Source of the DNA: a virus
Direction: 5' to 3' (one strand)
IMG/VR virus record: IMGVR_UViG_3300027792_000013
Span: 51,929-115,928 of that record
DNA length: 64,000 bases
A model generated the notes under the pieces. It was not told the DNA's origin. It saw only the letters and a list, made by a program, of their open reading frames with translations, and ran no database searches. Position numbers and translations under genes: made by a program. Below, one piece after another: positions 27,041-41,713 of the stretch. Within the stretch, counting starts at the first letter, position 1, and each line of letters starts with the position of its first letter.

Positions 27041-27562
27041 TTAGTCAGTAAAATCGAATGTTGAATAAAGCAAAGTGGCATCACAAAATAGGGTATCAGG
27101 ATCAACTCTAGTAGAAAATCCTAGATTTGATAAATTTTTTACCCAGCATTGATGAAAAGCAATTTTACTAACTATATTTTTTTTATTTGAAAGCAAATAA
27201 AGAACACCTTCGGAAGTGTCAGTTTGATTTCTTAAATGTAACATAGCATCAATTGTTAACTGTTGATTTTCTGGAAGTGGAGAAAAATCTTTATTAGCTA
27301 ACATCCATCTAAACAAGTTGATATAATTACTTAGATTTTCATCAACCACAAAAGTAAATCTAAGTTCACCGAAATCAATACTAGTCCCTGGTTCTCTTTC
27401 CGTATAGAATGGATTCTGTTTATTAATTACACCAATACTAACATCTGGTATTGTGGTATCAACTATCATATATGAAAAGTCAGGAAACTTTTCTAAAGTA
27501 AAAAAGAAGTTCGTGGGATTCGTATGATTTAATATTAAATGTTCAGCGGTTTGATATATCAT
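27041..27562 (-). CDS. gp3: gp3-like tail tube terminator (tube-fold protein)
   Basis: NFFFTLEKFP, PG.SIDFGEL.FTFVVDENLSNY..LFRWM. Confidence 0.78.
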   Translation of the reverse strand: MIYQTAEHLILNHTNPTNFFFTLEKFPDFSYMIVDTTIPDVSIGVINKQNPFYTEREPGTSIDFGELRFTFVVDENLSNYINLFRWMLANKDFSPLPENQQLTIDAMLHLRNQTDTSEGVLYLLSNKKNIVSKIAFHQCWVKNLSNLGFSTRVDPDTLFCDATLLYSTFDFTD

Positions 27563-32350: not shown

Positions 32351-32382
32351 TTTTGATCCTCATATAATATTTATATGATGAC

Positions 32383-33741: not shown

Positions 33742-34012
33742 TAGTACGAAAATCTTTTAAAATTTCTTCTTGTATATCATAAACTTCTGTTGAATTGTCC
33801 TCAAATTCTGGGAAAAGAGATGCTATTTGTCGCCGTATATTTAATTGTCCAGTACTTTTTCTACCGTTTATTGCTGCAATAAAAATCTTTGTTTCTATAA
33901 TTTTAATTATGTCATTTTCGGGATTGAGTGTTGATTGGAAACTTATTTTCTTTGCGATATCTGGTGTTATGTACATTTTTTTACTCCTTTTTGTTACCGC
34001 ATTCAACTTCAA
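33674..34012 (-). CDS. Hypothetical protein
   Basis: Likely start MYITP with AAGGAG RBS. Confidence 0.55.
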   Translation of the reverse strand: MKLNAVTKRSKKMYITPDIAKKISFQSTLNPENDIIKIIETKIFIAAINGRKSTGQLNIRRQIASLFPEFEDNSTEVYDIQEEILKDFRTIGFETEFFDGEPSISWEKNEKL

Positions 34013-34295
34013 AACTAAAGTTGATAAATTCGCTATTAATGGATGCTGTACGTTGAATATAGATATCTATAGCAAATTTGCCCAATTTAATCATATCAAG
34101 AGTATTGTTACTTTCATCACATATAACACTATGGCCGAATATTATGTTTGCGTATTTTAATAAATTTAATTCCAATTCAATCTTTGTTTTAATCCAACTC
34201 CTATGAATTTCATCGTTGGGTTTAAAAATCAATTTTTCAATTATCGGTTCTGTAATTTTCTTTATTTTTGTTATTAATTCTTCTTTAGTTATCAT
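33981..34295 (-). CDS. Stand-alone tail-sheath C-terminal-domain-like protein
   Basis: IFKPNDE..R, VICDESNNT...I..G.F.IDIYI resembles the gp18 C-terminus in this window (VCDTTNNTPYIIDNNAFVGDIYIKP). Confidence 0.6.
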   Translation of the reverse strand: MITKEELITKIKKITEPIIEKLIFKPNDEIHRSWIKTKIELELNLLKYANIIFGHSVICDESNNTLDMIKLGKFAIDIYIQRTASINSEFINFSFEVECGNKKE

Positions 34296-34341: not shown

Positions 34342-34611
34342 CTATTGTTCTGGCACGTAGTTCGCCGGATCGCCAGCAACATAAGCGTTTTTTCCCAATG
34401 CTGCCATTAATGCACCCAAAAAACCACAAAGCAGCATCGTCTTTTGTTCTTCATCGCCTCTATAATATGCGTCATAAAACAATTTTCGCTCGGTTTCGGA
34501 TGCCAATAATTCCGGATTACAACACGAAAAATCTGGACAACATTGACCTGATTCATAATCATGCCGCGAAGTACCCTTTAACCACAATTCTAGTTGTTTT
34601 TTTTGAGTCAC
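34342..34611 (-). CDS. Hypothetical protein with CCPDFSCC motif
   Basis: Higher-GC ORF directly downstream of the structured RNA island. Confidence 0.6.
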   Translation of the reverse strand: MTQKKQLELWLKGTSRHDYESGQCCPDFSCCNPELLASETERKLFYDAYYRGDEEQKTMLLCGFLGALMAALGKNAYVAGDPANYVPEQ

Positions 34612-34630
34612 AATTTACCCCTTAAAAAAA

Positions 34631-34770
34631 GGCCAGCGGGCCGGTCGCTACTCCGGCTTGCTCCGGTTGCCGACAACCGTAAGTCGCATATGCTGCGTAA
34701 TGTGGGTAAGTCGGTGTACCTAATCTCCGCAGCGAAGGCGTGTCCGCGATTTTCCACGCCGCCGCTGGCC
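34631..34770 (-). ncRNA. Putative tRNA-like structured RNA, unit B
   Basis: 9-bp closing stem GGCCAGCGG/CCGCTGGCC with internal stems GGCGTG/CACGCC, GCTGCG/CGCAGC, GGTTG/CAACC, GCCGG/CCGGC, followed by T7. Confidence 0.6.
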
Positions 34771-34781
34771 GTATTATTGCT

Positions 34782-34869
34782 TATGGACAGAGGGCCGGTG
34801 TTCTTAGCGCGCTCCAACCGGCGGTTCCATTTGGTTTTAGTACCCCGGATTGCTCCGCCTCTGTCCATA
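34782..34869 (-). ncRNA. Putative tRNA-like structured RNA, unit A
   Basis: 12-bp closing stem TATGGACAGAGG/CCTCTGTCCATA, CGGA-GCAA-TCCG GNRA hairpin, GCCGGT/ACCGGC arm abutting the closing stem. Confidence 0.55.
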
Positions 34870-34943
34870 TTATTGCGGGGGCCGGGCCTGTCAATTCTTT
34901 TGATTTCATCTTCTACAGAGTTAATTAATTCACTCATGACTAA

Positions 34944-34971
34944 ATTATAAAGTAGAACAGAAAAAAACTTA
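34944..34971 (-). promoter_or_regulatory. AAGTT-N16-TATAAT promoter upstream of the GC-rich RNA island
   Basis: TTAAGTT tttttctgttctactt TATAAT. Confidence 0.68.
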
Positions 34972-34975
34972 ATGA

Positions 34976-35218
34976 TTACGCAGTTTTAATTTGTTTTTCT
35001 TGAGATGTTAACCTATTAATTTCATCTCTCTTTCGTTTTATCTGAATTCGAATTTGCTCTATTTGTCTTGCTGTATCACGATTAAGAGTTTTGCTTGATC
35101 TGACATGTTTAATTTGATTTTCAAGATCTGCGATTTGTTTGTGCAATCGTTCTTTTTGTGCTTGTTTGTATATCTCGGTTGACTTATCACCTTCTAAAAA
35201 AATTTCTGTGCCTTTCAT
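34976..35218 (-). CDS. Small coiled-coil protein with MKGTEIFLE N-terminus
   Basis: AGGAG RBS before Met at 35218. Confidence 0.65.
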   Translation of the reverse strand: MKGTEIFLEGDKSTEIYKQAQKERLHKQIADLENQIKHVRSSKTLNRDTARQIEQIRIQIKRKRDEINRLTSQEKQIKTA

Positions 35219-35229
35219 TTTAAATCTCC

Positions 35230-35733
35230 TTATTCCCAAGTTACATATAAAAAATTGACAGTGAATTCCAAAGGTTGATTGGTAAGATCCCAATTCAATG
35301 GAACTTCGGAAACCTCTTCCGGAATACAATCCTTGAACGTAATTGTTCTTATAGTTTGCATTGATCTATTATAGACATCAACTATTACATCGGATTTAAC
35401 GTTATCGAAAAAATCAACAGTCAATGTTTTTTTCGAATAAATTGCGTCAAACCATTTGCTAAACCCATTCCATACTTTAAACTCAGAATCAGAGAAAAAT
35501 GTTACTGGTAACAAACTGAAATTTAATCCACTTGGAACATTCAGTTTTAAACCATAATATGAGTACCCAGAAGAATTTAATTTTTGGCTTGGGAGTACTG
35601 CCCCTTTTGCAAAAAAGGTGCATCCAAATCTTCCCATATCTCCAAAATATTTTTGACCATTTGAAACAGTGACCTTGAACTTATTTGTTACCGCTACATC
35701 TTTGAATTGTGATTTAAATTGTTCAAGGTTCAT
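35230..35733 (-). CDS. Tail tube-like paralog (gp19/gp54 fold)
   Basis: Similar to the adjacent gp19 (NKFKV, KGAVLP, L.WD....P.EF.V.F.Y..W). Confidence 0.75.
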   Translation of the reverse strand: MNLEQFKSQFKDVAVTNKFKVTVSNGQKYFGDMGRFGCTFFAKGAVLPSQKLNSSGYSYYGLKLNVPSGLNFSLLPVTFFSDSEFKVWNGFSKWFDAIYSKKTLTVDFFDNVKSDVIVDVYNRSMQTIRTITFKDCIPEEVSEVPLNWDLTNQPLEFTVNFLYVTWE

Positions 35734-36245
35734 TATTTTGTGGTGTCACTTGTCCAATAATCATACTTAAATGTTACTGAATATTCTTCTGGAGTATCCG
35801 TTGTATCCCAAGATAAATTGATTACATCACCACAGTTTTGTGGATATGCCCCTACGATAGTATATGATTTCAAAATTTCCTGTTTACTACCTAATTGAAC
35901 TACAAGAAGATCTCGTTTTACCTCTTGAAGTAAACTAAATCCGATATTTTGTTTTGTATTATTTATTAGCTCGCCCCATTCTTCTAGTTTTCGTCGAATT
36001 GTATATCCGATGTCATTATATACATGTACCGTCCAATCTTCATAGTCAGGATCTCCAGGAATTTGAACTTTTCTACCCATAAAACTCATTGCAAATCCCC
36101 CATTACTTTTCGTGGGAATAGAAGCCCCTTTGCAATGAAAACTATGATTCAGTGGGGTTCCTGTTGGAAATTGAAGAGTAACTAGAAATAACGTCGGTCT
36201 AGCGACGTTACCAAACATCGCTTTATATCCTTCAATACTTAGCAT
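35733..36245 (-). CDS. gp19: gp19 tail tube protein
   Basis: ARPTLF, FMGRKVQIPGD..YEDWTV..YND, GAYP, LSWD, YSVTFKYDYW. Confidence 0.92.
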   Translation of the reverse strand: MLSIEGYKAMFGNVARPTLFLVTLQFPTGTPLNHSFHCKGASIPTKSNGGFAMSFMGRKVQIPGDPDYEDWTVHVYNDIGYTIRRKLEEWGELINNTKQNIGFSLLQEVKRDLLVVQLGSKQEILKSYTIVGAYPQNCGDVINLSWDTTDTPEEYSVTFKYDYWTSDTTK

Positions 36246-36260
36246 TATATCCTCCTTTGG

Positions 36261-36301
36261 TATAACCAGGAGGGGATCTTACAAATCCCCTCCTGGTTAT
36301 A
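36261..36301 (-). terminator. 17-bp perfect stem-loop after the major capsid gene (terminator or processing/stability hairpin)
   Basis: TATAACCAGGAGGGGAT-7 nt-ATCCCCTCCTGGTTATA; no U-tract on the sense strand. Confidence 0.65.
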
Positions 36302-36327
36302 TTAACTTCTATTACTACGAGCACTTT

Positions 36328-37734
36328 TTACAGATTGGTGATCGTAATGTATCTGTAGTACAGATGCGCACCAAAAGGATTTTCACCTAGACCGTATCGA
36401 GTTTGGAACCAGATCCTGGGCTGACCGTCTTCTTCACCAATACCCTTTTTGATTGTCAGTGGAACATAAGGGCAATAGTAAAGACCGGCATCCCATTCTG
36501 AGGTACCTTTGTAGCCAACGACACAATAGTTAGATGTTGCATAGATATCAACATAGACTTTGTACTTATGACCCAGGGTTCCAATAAAAGCACTATTTCC
36601 GAGATTAACATCTCCAATACCATAGTCGGTATTTCCGGGACCGTAGTGCTTAAACATTGGAAGACTTTCAATCATTGAAGCTACATCAAGACTACAAACA
36701 ATGAAATTGCCCCGACCTCGTAAAGTATCCTTTGCGATTTGGTTACCAGTTTTGTTGAACTTTTGAATCATCGACCAAGTCTTTTCTAGGCTCCAACGAC
36801 CATCCGCATCACCACCTTCATCAATACTCAAATAGTTGAAAGTTGAAGTTCCACCCAACTGAGCCTTTTCAATTAGCTTGTCCAAAAATCTTTTGTTCAT
36901 TTCAACTGCCACTTCATTACCAAGGGCTTTGGTAAGTTCAGCATCAGCATCCATACCATGAACTGATTTCAAATCCTGGGCAAGTTCATCAGTGAATTTA
37001 GCTTTTAACCGATAGTTATCAGCTGTTACTGTCACTTTCTCGATGACCATTCCGAGTTCTCGAATCCCGGTTGTTGCAGCTTCTGCAGCAGCAACATTAG
37101 CGAACTTTCCATATTCTTTGAAGAGGAACCGGAAATGAGCTTCGTTATCATAATAAGAACTAATTGTGGTTTCCGCACTAACGAAAGGATTTGCGTTATC
37201 AACGCTATCATCTTCCGCAAAGCTACCCGAAGTGATTTCTACCAGTACTGTATTGCCTTCCTTGTATCGAACAACACCAACTCCGGCTCCACTACCATTA
37301 CTGGTAATGGCTCCTTCTTGTACGAAGGCAGCCGCAGAACCTAAAACCATAACACAGGAATTTGAAGCCTTTACGGGGTAAGCCGTGTTATTATGATAAA
37401 CAGTTTTCATACAAAAAACTAAGCCGCTAGGACCAGTCATTGGCTGAACACCAAAAAGATCCATACCAATTAGTTGAGGAAAACCTCTTCGAATAACAGA
37501 GACTAGAACGGGTTCATACTTCTGTATATCGCCCGTTTCTGTCTTTTCTGCTAACAGGTAATCTTGTTTTTCATTTTCCAAAAGAACAGCCATAACAGAT
37601 TTTTGACGATCTGTTAAGGTCGGATACCCGACCCGCTCACTCAAAAATCCAGGAATCTCTTGATTGGTTTTCGGATCAATGGATGGTTCTGACCATTCCT
37701 GAAGTAATTGTGGAATAGGTTTAATTTGTAACAT
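36328..37734 (-). CDS. gp23: gp23 major capsid protein
   Basis: GVQPMTGPSGLVF, ELAQDLKSVHGMDADAEL, RGRGNFIVCS, GYKG...DAGLYYCPYVPL, TRYGL.ENPF. Confidence 0.97.
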   Translation of the reverse strand: MLQIKPIPQLLQEWSEPSIDPKTNQEIPGFLSERVGYPTLTDRQKSVMAVLLENEKQDYLLAEKTETGDIQKYEPVLVSVIRRGFPQLIGMDLFGVQPMTGPSGLVFCMKTVYHNNTAYPVKASNSCVMVLGSAAAFVQEGAITSNGSGAGVGVVRYKEGNTVLVEITSGSFAEDDSVDNANPFVSAETTISSYYDNEAHFRFLFKEYGKFANVAAAEAATTGIRELGMVIEKVTVTADNYRLKAKFTDELAQDLKSVHGMDADAELTKALGNEVAVEMNKRFLDKLIEKAQLGGTSTFNYLSIDEGGDADGRWSLEKTWSMIQKFNKTGNQIAKDTLRGRGNFIVCSLDVASMIESLPMFKHYGPGNTDYGIGDVNLGNSAFIGTLGHKYKVYVDIYATSNYCVVGYKGTSEWDAGLYYCPYVPLTIKKGIGEEDGQPRIWFQTRYGLGENPFGAHLYYRYITITNL

Positions 37735-38411: not shown

Positions 38412-38461
38412 GTTAACCTCCTTTGAAATCTATTTATAAAAATTTAATTTTTCATTTTTTT

Positions 38462-40036: not shown

Positions 40037-41713
40037 CTAGACCGCGGTCTTTAATATCTCTTCGAAACTAACACTTGATGCAACTGCGTTGAAGTTCAGC
40101 TGAATAAATTCAGCTGCCCTAACCGGCTTGATGTAGATGTCACCGACAAAGGCATTATTGTCTATGATATAAGGTGTATTGTTTGTGGTGTCACAAACAG
40201 TAAAGAAATCATAGATTCCACCTTTACCTTTTACGTATTCCAAAAATGGATCCACCATTAGTTTGAACATTGACCTTGTGAACTCATCATTGTTTTGAAA
40301 CAGAAAAGATCTTGATGCTGTGGCTATTGACTTTTCTAAGAGAATGAATAATCTACGTACATTGATTCTATTGAATGCACTATCTAGACTCAACAATGTT
40401 TTTTGTCCCCAGATCATATTACCTTCACTTGGGAAACTTACTATTGGATTGATACCATTTTTGTACAAAGTATCTCTTTGAGTTTTGTTTGGGATAATAG
40501 CAAATTTCAAAACATTTCTGAATTGGCCATTGCTATATCCCGCGGGTGCTTTCCAGACTTCATCGTAATAATCCGTTCTGCTAAAACATCCGGCTATATC
40601 GCCGCTTACAGGAACCCAACGTTGAATGTCGCTGTACTTATCATATATTCTTTTCCAGTTAGCATATAAAGCACCATAACTCGTATTTTTATTCAAAGTC
40701 GAGTTTCTATAGGAAACACAATTACTAATTGCGGTTGAAGTATCAACCGCAAAAATCTCCGATGAAGGAACTGTATTTACTGAAAAACAATCTAATCTAT
40801 TTGCGGCAATATCGATAATATAACTTTGAATTATTGAATTGCAATTGCCTCCATCCATCAAAATTGAAACATCGAATTCTTCTGAGTTTGCAAATAAGTC
40901 ATATCCGGTTTGAATATTTCCGGTAGTTGGATCACCATCCAACCCACCCGACATTCCAACTTTTTCAAAACTTGATGGTAGATTTGCATTAGAGGTATTG
41001 TCATACGCATATACCCAAGCAGATCTATCATTCAAAACATTTTCGATATACTTTGAGCGACCCGTAGCATCTTTAGCGTCTGGATCTAGTGATACTATCC
41101 ATTTTTCCTGAATTAGCCAATTATCATCTAACCAATTTTTTACGAGAATCGCAACAGCAATTTCATTTTGTGCTTCGGTTGCCCCGGCACTAGGGGCAAA
41201 TTCAAATTCGTCTTCAAAACTAACACCACTTTCAATTTCAGCAGTTGCAAAATCGGCCACGTTACAAAGAGCAATTCGAATTTTAGAATTTCCTAAATCT
41301 CCTGGGTACTTTGCAAAAAATTTTAGTTTTTCATTTGTGCTGAAAGACACTGTTGGTTGATTTGAAGAATTTGGAATGTATTCCTGTGCACCGTCGGTGG
41401 TATCACCATAGGTGTCATCGTATACAACAATTCCGGCATTTTTTGCAGCTGTTGAGTTTACGGCTCGAACAACCCACAAATTATTTGCATATCGTAAAAA
41501 TTCTGTATTGCTGAACCAATGTTCAAAATTACCGGCAACAGGTAAACCCCAAAATTCATAATTTTCTCTTTCATTGGTTGTTAATTTTCTTTCAAAACAA
41601 GGTCCCCATTTTGCCTTGATTACATTACCAACAATTGATGTTGCGATAATTGGAACCGTTGTAGTGAAATCAAACTCCCTCACCTGAACACTCGGACTTA
41701 GCGAAAAAGACAT
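40037..41713 (-). CDS. gp18: gp18 tail sheath
   Basis: MSFSLSPSVQVREFD, WGP, YDKYSD..RWVP.SGDIAG, APAG, SAFNRINVRRLF, IYIKPVR. Confidence 0.96.
   Translation of the reverse strand: MSFSLSPSVQVREFDFTTTVPIIATSIVGNVIKAKWGPCFERKLTTNERENYEFWGLPVAGNFEHWFSNTEFLRYANNLWVVRAVNSTAAKNAGIVVYDDTYGDTTDGAQEYIPNSSNQPTVSFSTNEKLKFFAKYPGDLGNSKIRIALCNVADFATAEIESGVSFEDEFEFAPSAGATEAQNEIAVAILVKNWLDDNWLIQEKWIVSLDPDAKDATGRSKYIENVLNDRSAWVYAYDNTSNANLPSSFEKVGMSGGLDGDPTTGNIQTGYDLFANSEEFDVSILMDGGNCNSIIQSYIIDIAANRLDCFSVNTVPSSEIFAVDTSTAISNCVSYRNSTLNKNTSYGALYANWKRIYDKYSDIQRWVPVSGDIAGCFSRTDYYDEVWKAPAGYSNGQFRNVLKFAIIPNKTQRDTLYKNGINPIVSFPSEGNMIWGQKTLLSLDSAFNRINVRRLFILLEKSIATASRSFLFQNNDEFTRSMFKLMVDPFLEYVKGKGGIYDFFTVCDTTNNTPYIIDNNAFVGDIYIKPVRAAEFIQLNFNAVASSVSFEEILKTAV

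What the first reader, a model, noticed from the sequence alone, without database searches (positions are those of the whole stretch)
34624..34971. GC-rich island folding into two tandem tRNA-like RNAs with a shared leader
Seen: about 270 bp at roughly 60% GC by eye in an about 30% GC genome, dense with perfect stems. On the minus strand both units begin GCAATAATAY-GGxCAGxGG-CGG and end ACCGGC-CCxCTGxCC, with compensatory changes in the closing stem (GGACAGAGG/CCTCTGTCC versus GGCCAGCGG/CCGCTGGCC). A GCCGG/CCGGC arm abuts the closing stem like a T arm on an acceptor stem. Unit B has a D-arm-like GGCGTGGAAAATCGCGGACACGCC and an enlarged middle; unit A has a GCAA tetraloop. There is no CCA or TTCRA loop. 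The island lies downstream of an AAGTT/TATAAT promoter and a TTGACA-N16-TAATAT, and ends in T7. Inference: uncharacterised tRNA-mimic ncRNAs, for example decoys for anticodon nucleases, Y-RNA-like RNAs, or substrates of the phage TGT-fold enzyme.
Basis: partly seen in the sequence, partly recalled or inferred. Interest (0 to 1): 0.8.

Follow-up and report, generated by a model that had tools for sequence, protein, structure and literature searches.

The report
Orphan folded RNA island in phage
A 270-base GC-rich stretch between tail genes of an uncultured T4-like phage does fold into two tightly closed multi-stem domains built from a decayed 96-base repeat, but it is not tRNA-like, has no relatives in anything I could search, and is most likely a structured end-piece of the late messenger RNA, not a proven new RNA gene.

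Summary
Window 34624-34893 is 53-62% GC in a 31% GC T4-like phage, and it is the only GC island in the 116-kb record that lies outside a credible gene. On the minus (gene) strand it folds into two closed domains: unit A (about 84 nt, four-way junction) and unit B (about 140 nt, five or six helices). Both fold better than shuffles (z -3.2 and -3.8). The units are paralogous: they share a linker, a closing stem with two compensated changes, and an abutting 5-bp arm. Repeats at offsets of 96 and 192 nt beat 300 of 300 shuffles. Upstream lies the remnant of a further unit, and a run of seven U follows unit B.

The tRNA-mimic reading is not supported. ARAGORN and Rfam find nothing, and there is no T-loop, 7-bp acceptor, CCA or nearby tRNA cluster. 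The 109-aa ORF is an artefact of composition.

No relative was found in phage, plasmid, IMG/VR, metagenome or genome collections, so covariation cannot be tested. No expression data could be obtained.

Best reading (about 0.4): a lineage-specific structured RNA inside a late operon that acts in cis as an attenuator and 3'-end protector. Rivals are a trans-acting stable RNA and passenger DNA. Interest is moderate.

The parts
34877..34892 (-). Remnant of the 3' end of a further repeat unit ('unit 0'). It marks the upstream border of the GC-rich island.
   Evidence: It resembles the 3' end of unit B (D5, 90% over 10 nt) and aligns with the 3' ends of A, B1 and B2 in MAFFT. GC content jumps here.
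34867..34876 (-). AU-rich linker 1 (GCAATAATAT)
   Evidence: It is repeated 9 of 10 before unit B (D1).
34784..34867 (-). Unit A, a four-way junction. The closing stem is 34858-34867 / 34784-34793 and is extendable to 12 bp. The other helices are a GCAA-tetraloop hairpin 34854-34857 / 34846-34849, a weak arm 34838-34844 / 34823-34829, and a 6-bp arm 34817-34822 / 34794-34799 that abuts the closing stem.
   Evidence: MFE -35.4 kcal/mol, z -3.18. Helix table with pair probabilities 0.65-0.94. Perfect 12-bp inverted repeat (I3).
34771..34783 (-). Linker 2 (TAA + GCAATAATAC)
   Evidence: D1.
34631..34770 (-). Unit B, a closed multi-helix domain made of two fused repeat periods (B1 34697-34780, B2 34624-34696). 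The closing stem is 34762-34770 / 34631-34639. The hairpins are 34755-34760 / 34737-34742, 34728-34733 / 34692-34697 (inner 34717-34720 / 34705-34708), 34674-34679 / 34664-34669 (UCGG loop), and 34653-34657 / 34640-34644, which abuts the closing stem.
   Evidence: MFE -64.2 kcal/mol, z -3.82, 0 of 200 shuffles. Pair probabilities 0.85-0.99 for the main helices. Period alignment. The model built from unit A finds unit B at 20.5 bits and nothing else in 825 kb.
34624..34630 (-). Run of seven T (U7) directly after the unit B closing stem. It is terminator-like.
   Evidence: terminator-like site on the minus strand at 34650-34634 plus the T run.
34618..34623 (-). Shine-Dalgarno-like AAGGGG, 6 nt before the GTG start of the next gene
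   Evidence: Homologues of the gene carry their own ribosome-binding site at the same place.
34342..34611 (-). Downstream gene: a conserved 89-aa Cys-rich protein (QLELWL..CCPDFSCC). It is context, not part of the RNA.
   Evidence: Homologues. No similar RNA lies upstream of 160 homologues.
34608..34937 (-). 109-aa ORF across the island, judged spurious
   Evidence: It matches only itself in 5.8e9 and 1.84e9 proteins. Two of six frames are stop-free and GC1/2/3 is 0.52/0.61/0.66. No ribosome-binding site precedes the ATG.
38431..38438 (-). T4-type late promoter TATAAATA. It is the nearest exact one upstream; the next exact one downstream is at 32368-32375.

Best explanation
The island is a structured RNA element on the minus (gene) strand. 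It is transcribed as part of the late operon that starts at the TATAAATA promoter at 38438 and carries the scaffold, major capsid, two tube-like and one 80-aa gene. It arose from a tandem array of units about 96 nt long. One unit survives as a four-way junction (A). Two fused units were remodelled into one larger closed domain (B). A stump of a fourth unit marks the upstream border. Proposed mechanism (inferred, not shown): the GC-rich closed domains followed by U7 stop part of the transcription, or form a processed 3' end, just before the low-copy genes (89-aa, 104-aa, 112-aa, 91-aa, gp26-like hub). They would also block 3' exonucleases, which stabilises the abundant capsid and tube message. 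The AU-rich linkers are the likely endonuclease entry sites, so unit-sized stable fragments may accumulate as a by-product. Shown: composition, fold, paralogy, compensated stem changes, U7, operon position, absence of coding signal. Inferred: that it is RNA and not DNA, the strand, termination or stabilisation, and processing.
For: It is a GC island of 0.53-0.62 in a 0.31 genome, and the only one outside an ORF. The others lie in a Dam-like methyltransferase gene and a 101-aa ORF. Its folds are far better than shuffles, with high pair probabilities. The units are paralogous: repeats at offsets 96, 192 and 154 beat 300/300 shuffles, the periods align, and a model of unit A picks unit B as the only other hit in 825 kb. 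Both differences in the closing stem are compensated. In unit B the outer strands of the two fused periods stay perfectly complementary while the inner, now redundant strands have decayed, which points to selection on the closing helix. GC-rich stems separated by AU-rich linkers are the usual signature of RNA genes native to AT-rich genomes; this principle underlies the GC-rich-IGR searches of PMC8723152 and PMC6429828. U7 follows the last stem on the strand of all neighbouring genes. There is no exact late promoter between 38438 and 32375, so the island lies inside one late operon, at the border between high-copy products (capsid, tube) and low-copy ones (hub). Coding is excluded as far as it can be.
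Against: No homologue exists in any collection searched, so there is no between-genome covariation. Nearly all pairs are Watson-Crick and the plus strand folds almost as well (z -2.46 and -3.37), so neither the strand nor RNA versus DNA is settled by the sequence. A simple hairpin is enough for termination or stabilisation, and this phage uses one after the capsid gene (36258-36304), so two elaborate domains are more than the cis role needs. The stem next to U7 is a long-range closing helix, which is unusual for an intrinsic terminator. The count of terminator-like sites in the region is near chance (2 found against 1.2 expected). The near-identical 10-nt linker hints at a specific recognition site, which fits a processed stable RNA better.
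Confidence: 0.4

Rival explanations
1. Trans-acting stable small RNAs. Units A and B are cut out at the conserved AU-rich linkers and accumulate late in infection as stand-alone structured RNAs of a new family, acting for example as a protein sponge or decoy, or as an assembly cofactor. The first reader's tRNA-mimic version is one special case.
For: The folds are elaborate, closed and exonuclease-proof, and a near-identical 10-nt linker precedes each unit. The layout is tandem, as for T4 rnaC/rnaD. The structure is more complex than a terminator needs. An 8-nt palindrome sits in the large loop of unit A (sequence) and could allow loop-loop dimerisation, though about one such palindrome is expected by chance.
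Against: There is no recognisable promoter of its own. No relatives were found anywhere. There is no complementarity of 12 nt or more to the rest of the phage genome. tRNA-specific features were tested and are absent. No Ro60 gene is present.
Confidence: 0.27
2. Passenger or selfish DNA. The island is a fragment of a repeat array (REP/BIME-like or MITE-like, or part of a foreign RNA gene array) captured by illegitimate recombination. It is kept because it is recent or harmless and has no function in the phage.
For: The array is truncated at its upstream edge (unit 0 stump). Composition changes sharply. The element is an orphan. The same genome shows another GC-rich acquisition inside a methyltransferase gene. 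The pentamer AATTG lies at both edges of a 281-nt segment.
Against: There is a single copy in the phage. No donor was found in 185,579 species genomes or in IMG/VR with the linker-plus-stem motifs. There are no terminal inverted repeats. The AU-rich linkers do not fit a GC-rich donor. In a 31% GC genome unselected GC-rich helices should decay, yet all main helices are perfect.
Confidence: 0.2
3. DNA-level element. The hairpins act in single-stranded or cruciform DNA, for example at a replication or recombination initiation site.
For: The stems are almost purely Watson-Crick and both strands fold about equally well.
Against: There are no iterons, no AT-rich unwinding block and no neighbouring replication genes; the setting is a late structural operon. 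U7 and gene orientation favour an RNA reading.
Confidence: 0.05
4. Intervening sequence in a gene. The 281 nt at 34612-34892 would be removed from, or bypassed in, the mRNA, joining a 15-codon ATG frame (34893-34937) to the 89-aa frame.
For: The join is in frame and AATTG lies at both edges. Only 6.6% of shuffled spacers give such an in-phase ATG frame.
Against: Homologues of the 89-aa protein start at the same methionine with their own ribosome-binding site, often with a stop a few codons upstream, and this gene has its own AAGGGG site. No group I intron model matches. I could find no guide pairing for the 5' exon by eye. The upstream ATG has no ribosome-binding site.
Confidence: 0.03
5. The 109-aa ORF (34608-34937) or the 118-aa plus-strand ORF encodes a protein.
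For: The ORF is open for 109 codons, and its stop overlaps the next start.
Against: It matches only itself in two very large protein libraries, and the plus-strand ORF matches nothing. Two frames are open and a third has one stop, as expected at 58% GC. There is no ribosome-binding site. The product would be Arg/Gly/Pro/Ala-rich. No Pfam or PHROG family matches.
Confidence: 0.03

Closest known systems
Bacteriophage T4 stable RNAs rnaC (species 1, 139 nt) and rnaD (species 2, 119 nt)
   Same: Both are adjacent small structured RNAs of a T4-type phage, about 85-140 nt, with no known function and no decoding role.
   Different: rnaC ends in a canonical T arm (5-bp stem, UUCGAAU loop) next to an acceptor-like stem and lies at the end of the tRNA cluster. 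The units here have 8- and 19-nt loops on that arm, closing stems of 9-12 bp and no CCA. They lie in a late structural operon about 60 kb from the only tRNA. No sequence similarity beyond chance was found.
Intrinsic terminators and 3' stabiliser structures of polycistronic mRNAs (including REP/BIME-type extragenic palindromes)
   Same: Both are GC-rich stems followed by a U run, placed between genes needed in different amounts. The units are tandem and the sequence is poorly conserved outside the lineage.
   Different: Those elements are simple hairpins of 20-40 nt, often present in many copies. This one is a single locus with two multi-branched domains of 84 and 140 nt.
Type III toxin-antitoxin antitoxin arrays (ToxI-like)
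   Same: The order is the same: tandem RNA repeats, then a terminator, then a ribosome-binding site and an ORF.
   Different: ToxI-type repeats are short (about 34-45 nt, from general knowledge) and near-identical. The units here are long, unequal and diverged. The downstream ORF has no ToxN match, and its homologues elsewhere lack any such array.
Candidate structured ncRNAs found as long GC-rich intergenic regions in AT-rich genomes (GC-IGR / DIMPL approach, PMC8723152, PMC6429828)
   Same: The discovery signature is the same: a long, GC-enriched, ORF-poor intergenic region in an AT-rich genome.
   Different: Those candidates are accepted only with covariation among homologues. None is available here.

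Membership tests
tRNA / tRNA-framed phage RNAs (T4 rnaC type) | Recognised by tRNA detectors or covariance models | tested here: not met
   ARAGORN finds 0 genes in the window. No tRNA, tmRNA or tRNA-like family appears at E <= 10.
tRNA / tRNA-framed phage RNAs (T4 rnaC type) | 5-bp T stem with a 7-nt UUCRANY loop abutting a 7-bp acceptor stem | tested here: not met
   The abutting arm is 5-6 bp, but its loops are 19 nt (A) and 8 nt (B) with no T-loop motif. The closing stems are 9-12 bp. T4 rnaC shows the canonical arm.
tRNA / tRNA-framed phage RNAs (T4 rnaC type) | 3' discriminator and CCA, or a site for its addition; location in a tRNA cluster | tested here: not met
   Unit A is followed by TAA and the linker, unit B by U7. 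The only tRNA, tRNA-Met, lies at genome 25984-26055, about 60 kb away.
Y RNA / YrlA with Ro60 | Ro60 (TROVE) gene in the genome and a match to a Y RNA model | tested here: not met
   No TROVE match in the 116-kb record, while the controls rang. No Y RNA hit. The record is only about 64% complete.
Intrinsic (Rho-independent) terminator | GC-rich stem directly followed by a U run on the transcribed strand | tested here: met
   A 9-bp GC-rich closing stem, or a local 4-5-bp hairpin, is followed by U7 at 34624-34630. Whether it terminates was not tested.
Intrinsic (Rho-independent) terminator | Simple hairpin with a loop of 3-8 nt, total size 20-40 nt | tested here: not met
   The strong stem closes a 140-nt multi-branched domain.
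Known riboswitch, ribozyme or other Rfam family | Score at or above the family's gathering threshold | tested here: not met
   0 matches in 64 kb. The best sub-threshold scores are 10-15 bits against thresholds of 35-76.
Group I intron | Match to the intron model; U at the 5' splice site paired to a guide sequence, G at the intron's 3' end; an interrupted host gene | tested here: not met
   No model hit. The flanking gene is complete at its canonical start. No guide pairing was found by inspection.
Type III toxin-antitoxin locus | Near-identical short tandem repeats followed by a ToxN/CptN/TenpN-type toxin gene | tested here: not met
   Tandem Repeats Finder reports no array. The units are diverged. 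The downstream ORF has no Pfam family. ToxN was not found, but the control genomes were also silent.
REP/BIME or MITE-type repeat | Many copies in a genome; terminal inverted repeats and a target-site duplication for MITEs | tested here: not met
   There is a single locus in the phage. No copies turned up in motif scans of genomes. There are no terminal inverted repeats, only a 5-nt direct repeat. The host genome is unknown, so this could not be tested there.

The most novel reading that the evidence does not exclude
The two domains are excised at their conserved AU-rich linkers and accumulate late in infection as stable, trans-acting RNAs of a family not yet described and unrelated to tRNA. 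They would be encoded among the tail genes of a T4-like phage and act, for example, as a protein sponge against a host factor or as an RNA cofactor of virion assembly.
Probability: 0.25. Interest if true: 0.7.

Novelty: new variant of a known kind. Interest (0 to 1): 0.38.

Why it matters
If it is a functional RNA, it adds to the poorly understood set of non-decoding structured RNAs of T4-type phages; T4's rnaC and rnaD, to my knowledge, still have no assigned function. It would also show such RNAs arising by tandem duplication and refolding of a small unit inside a structural operon. If it is only an attenuator and stabiliser, it is an unusually elaborate example of how a phage sets the ratio between high-copy and low-copy virion proteins. 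In either case it is a single orphan locus, so its value for now is as a candidate for RNA-seq and structure probing, not as an established new class.

Tried and rejected
DNA searches:
- blastn of the island and its flanks found nothing in phages (one 21-nt chance hit) or plasmids.
- The own genome holds only the island itself.

Motif scans:
- Linker plus stem in IMG/VR gave 0 hits.
- A relaxed stem version gave 7 hits, all unrelated and without a partner strand.
- The shared hairpin motif gave 12 hits, all simple terminators or coding sequence.
- Linker plus stem in 185,579 species genomes gave 37 hits, about the number expected by chance, all inside coding sequence.

Synteny:
- 160 loci encoding homologues of the downstream 89-aa protein have no similar RNA. 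Most have little or no upstream spacer.
- 63 loci around capsid relatives (at most 42-46% identity) show no comparable GC island beside the capsid genes.

Protein route to hidden copies:
- The 109-aa and 118-aa translations match nothing but themselves.

Covariance model:
- A model of unit A found only units A and B in 825 kb.

Other checks:
- Rfam gave nothing, and ARAGORN found no tRNA in the window.
- A search for antisense targets found no complementarity of 12 nt or more in the genome.

Ideas considered and dropped: group I intron, HDV-like or hairpin ribozyme, retron ncRNA (no reverse transcriptase nearby; not searched genome-wide), RNase P fragment (a resemblance recalled from memory, no model hit), CRISPR-like repeat (sub-threshold chance hits only), and translational bypass.

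Full report
Setting. The window is the right-hand 64 kb of a 115.9-kb IMG/VR virus record with 31% GC. It is a distant T4-type phage. Its major capsid protein is 34% identical to cyanophage capsids, and it uses T4-type late promoters (TATAAATA) in front of late genes. Around the finding all genes run on the minus strand. In order they are sheath, prohead protease, scaffold, capsid (36328-37734), two tube-like genes (35230-36245) and an 80-aa coiled-coil ORF (34976-35218). Then comes the island. After it come an 89-aa ORF (34342-34611), a 104-aa protein with only a sheath C-terminal domain, two small ORFs, a gp26-like hub protein and a long endolysin-domain protein.

The observation. It is correct in nearly every detail.
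- 100-nt windows reach 0.53-0.62 GC against flanks of 0.21-0.40.
- On the minus strand the 281-nt stretch folds into two independent closed domains.
- Unit A (34784-34867) is a four-way junction with a 10-12-bp closing stem, a GCAA-tetraloop hairpin, a weak third arm, and a 6-bp arm that stacks on the closing stem.
- Unit B (34631-34770) has a 9-bp closing stem, three perfect 6-bp hairpins, and the same 5-bp GCCGG/CCGGC arm abutting the closing stem.
- The folds beat dinucleotide shuffles: z = -3.18 with 2 of 200 shuffles as good, and z = -3.82 with 0 of 200. Most helices have pair probabilities of 0.85-0.99.
- Both units are preceded by the same 10-nt AU-rich linker. The two positions at which their closing stems differ are changed on both strands. 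U7 follows unit B.

What the array is. The direct repeats fall at offsets of 96, 192 (twice 96) and 154 nt, and they exceed every one of 300 dinucleotide shuffles. Aligning the periods shows that unit B is two fused periods, B1 and B2. The 5' closing strand comes from B1 and the 3' strand from B2. The two inner strands, which would have closed each period separately, have decayed, and new perfect helices occupy the middle. The 16 nt upstream of linker 1 (34877-34892) match the 3' end of a unit (D5), so the array is cut off at its upstream border. A covariance model built from unit A alone finds unit B as a full-length match (20.5 bits, E about 0.1) and nothing else in 825 kb of window plus 98 loci. 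The outer strands were kept and the inner ones lost, and the closing-stem changes are compensated. These two facts are the only evidence here for selection on pairing, and both come from within one genome.

Not coding. The 109-aa ORF matches only itself among 5.8 billion clustered proteins and 1.84 billion representatives. The 118-aa plus-strand ORF matches nothing. Two of the six frames are free of stops and a third has one stop, as expected at this GC content. GC is high at all three codon positions (0.52/0.61/0.66), unlike the phage's genes. The ATG has no ribosome-binding site. The other GC-rich patches of the genome lie inside ORFs, one of them a Dam-like methyltransferase gene. This is therefore the only GC-rich patch outside a credible gene.

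Not a tRNA mimic and not a known family.
- Rfam gives no match at gathering scores in 64 kb. It gives only chance-level hits of 10-15 bits at E <= 10 on the island itself.
- ARAGORN finds no tRNA in the window and a single tRNA-Met about 60 kb away in the record.
- T4 rnaC, fetched for comparison, ends in a textbook T arm (5-bp stem, UUCGAAU loop) next to its terminal stem. The corresponding arms here carry 19- and 8-nt loops without that motif, the closing stems are too long, and there is no CCA.
- No Ro60 gene is present.
- Earlier notes of this scan describe many tRNA-framed phage RNAs. This element does not share their defining frame.

An orphan. I looked for relatives by six routes:
- DNA similarity.
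- Four motif scans of IMG/VR and of one genome per species (with contexts read).
- Synteny around 160 homologues of the downstream gene.
- Synteny around 63 capsid relatives.
- The translated frames.
- A covariance model.

Nothing was found. The 89-aa protein is a real and widespread small phage protein. Its homologues are usually packed against the preceding gene and start at the same methionine behind their own ribosome-binding site. The island is therefore not a conserved leader of that gene. Several tool outputs warn that records very near this genome may be left out, and two tools that could have shown variants or expression were unavailable.

How it most likely works. The only exact late promoters on this strand nearby are at 38438 and 32375. 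The island therefore sits inside one late operon, at the point where genes for very abundant products (capsid, tube-like proteins) give way to genes for low-copy parts (hub). A GC-rich closed structure followed by U7, 6 nt before the next ribosome-binding site, is what a partial terminator and 3'-exonuclease barrier looks like. I take this cis role as the most likely function (about 0.4).

It does not explain why two elaborate domains and a conserved linker are kept, when the same phage uses a plain 20-bp hairpin after its capsid gene. That is why a trans-acting stable RNA is a serious rival (about 0.27). Passenger DNA from an unknown donor (about 0.2) fits the truncated array and the orphan status, but not the AU-rich linkers or the perfect helices in an AT-biased genome. 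The DNA-level, intervening-sequence and coding readings are each at 0.05 or less.

One coincidence deserves a record. Removing 34612-34892, which has AATTG at both edges, joins a 15-codon ATG frame in phase to the 89-aa frame. Only 6.6% of shuffled spacers give such a frame. However, the family's canonical start and ribosome-binding site argue that this is chance.

Verdict. The island is a real structured element with an internal repeat. It is very probably RNA, it is not tRNA-like, and it matches nothing catalogued. Because it is a single orphan locus with no expression or covariation evidence, its novelty cannot be graded above a new variant of the known kind 'phage structured RNA / terminator-stabiliser element'. 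Interest is moderate.

Noticed in passing
window 36258-36304: A perfect 20-bp hairpin with a 7-nt loop lies in the 82-nt gap between the capsid gene and the first tube-like gene, with no U run after it. It is probably an mRNA 3' stabiliser or processing site of the late operon.
   Followed up: no
window 34342-34611 (-): The 89-aa Cys-rich protein (QLELWLxGxSxH...CCPDFSCC) belongs to a widespread small phage protein family. It has 114 relatives in viral contigs and 393 in metagenome contigs, mostly from sediment and groundwater samples, and no Pfam or PHROG family.
   Followed up: partly
window 34612-34892 with 34893-34937: Deleting the 281 nt bracketed by AATTG repeats fuses a 15-codon ATG frame (MSELINSVEDEIKRI) in phase to the 89-aa ORF. 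About 6.6% of shuffled spacers give such a frame. Homologues start at the canonical Met, so this is probably chance or an insertion scar.
   Followed up: partly
window 35230-35733, 35733-36245 and 27041-27562 (-): There are three paralogous tube-fold (gp19-like, phrog_45) genes. Two of them are adjacent, right after the capsid gene.
   Followed up: no
window 33981-34295 (-): A 104-aa protein consists only of a tail-sheath C-terminal domain (PF17482, phrog_23), separate from the full-length sheath gene at 40037-41713.
   Followed up: no
L163:2144-3154 (-) (genome 23644-24654): A 336-aa ORF has a D12-class N6-adenine DNA methyltransferase N-terminus, and its core is up to 62% GC. It looks like a horizontally acquired gene in this 31% GC phage.
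   Followed up: partly
genome 25984-26055 (-), outside the window: The only tRNA gene in the 116-kb record is a tRNA-Met (CAT).
   Followed up: no
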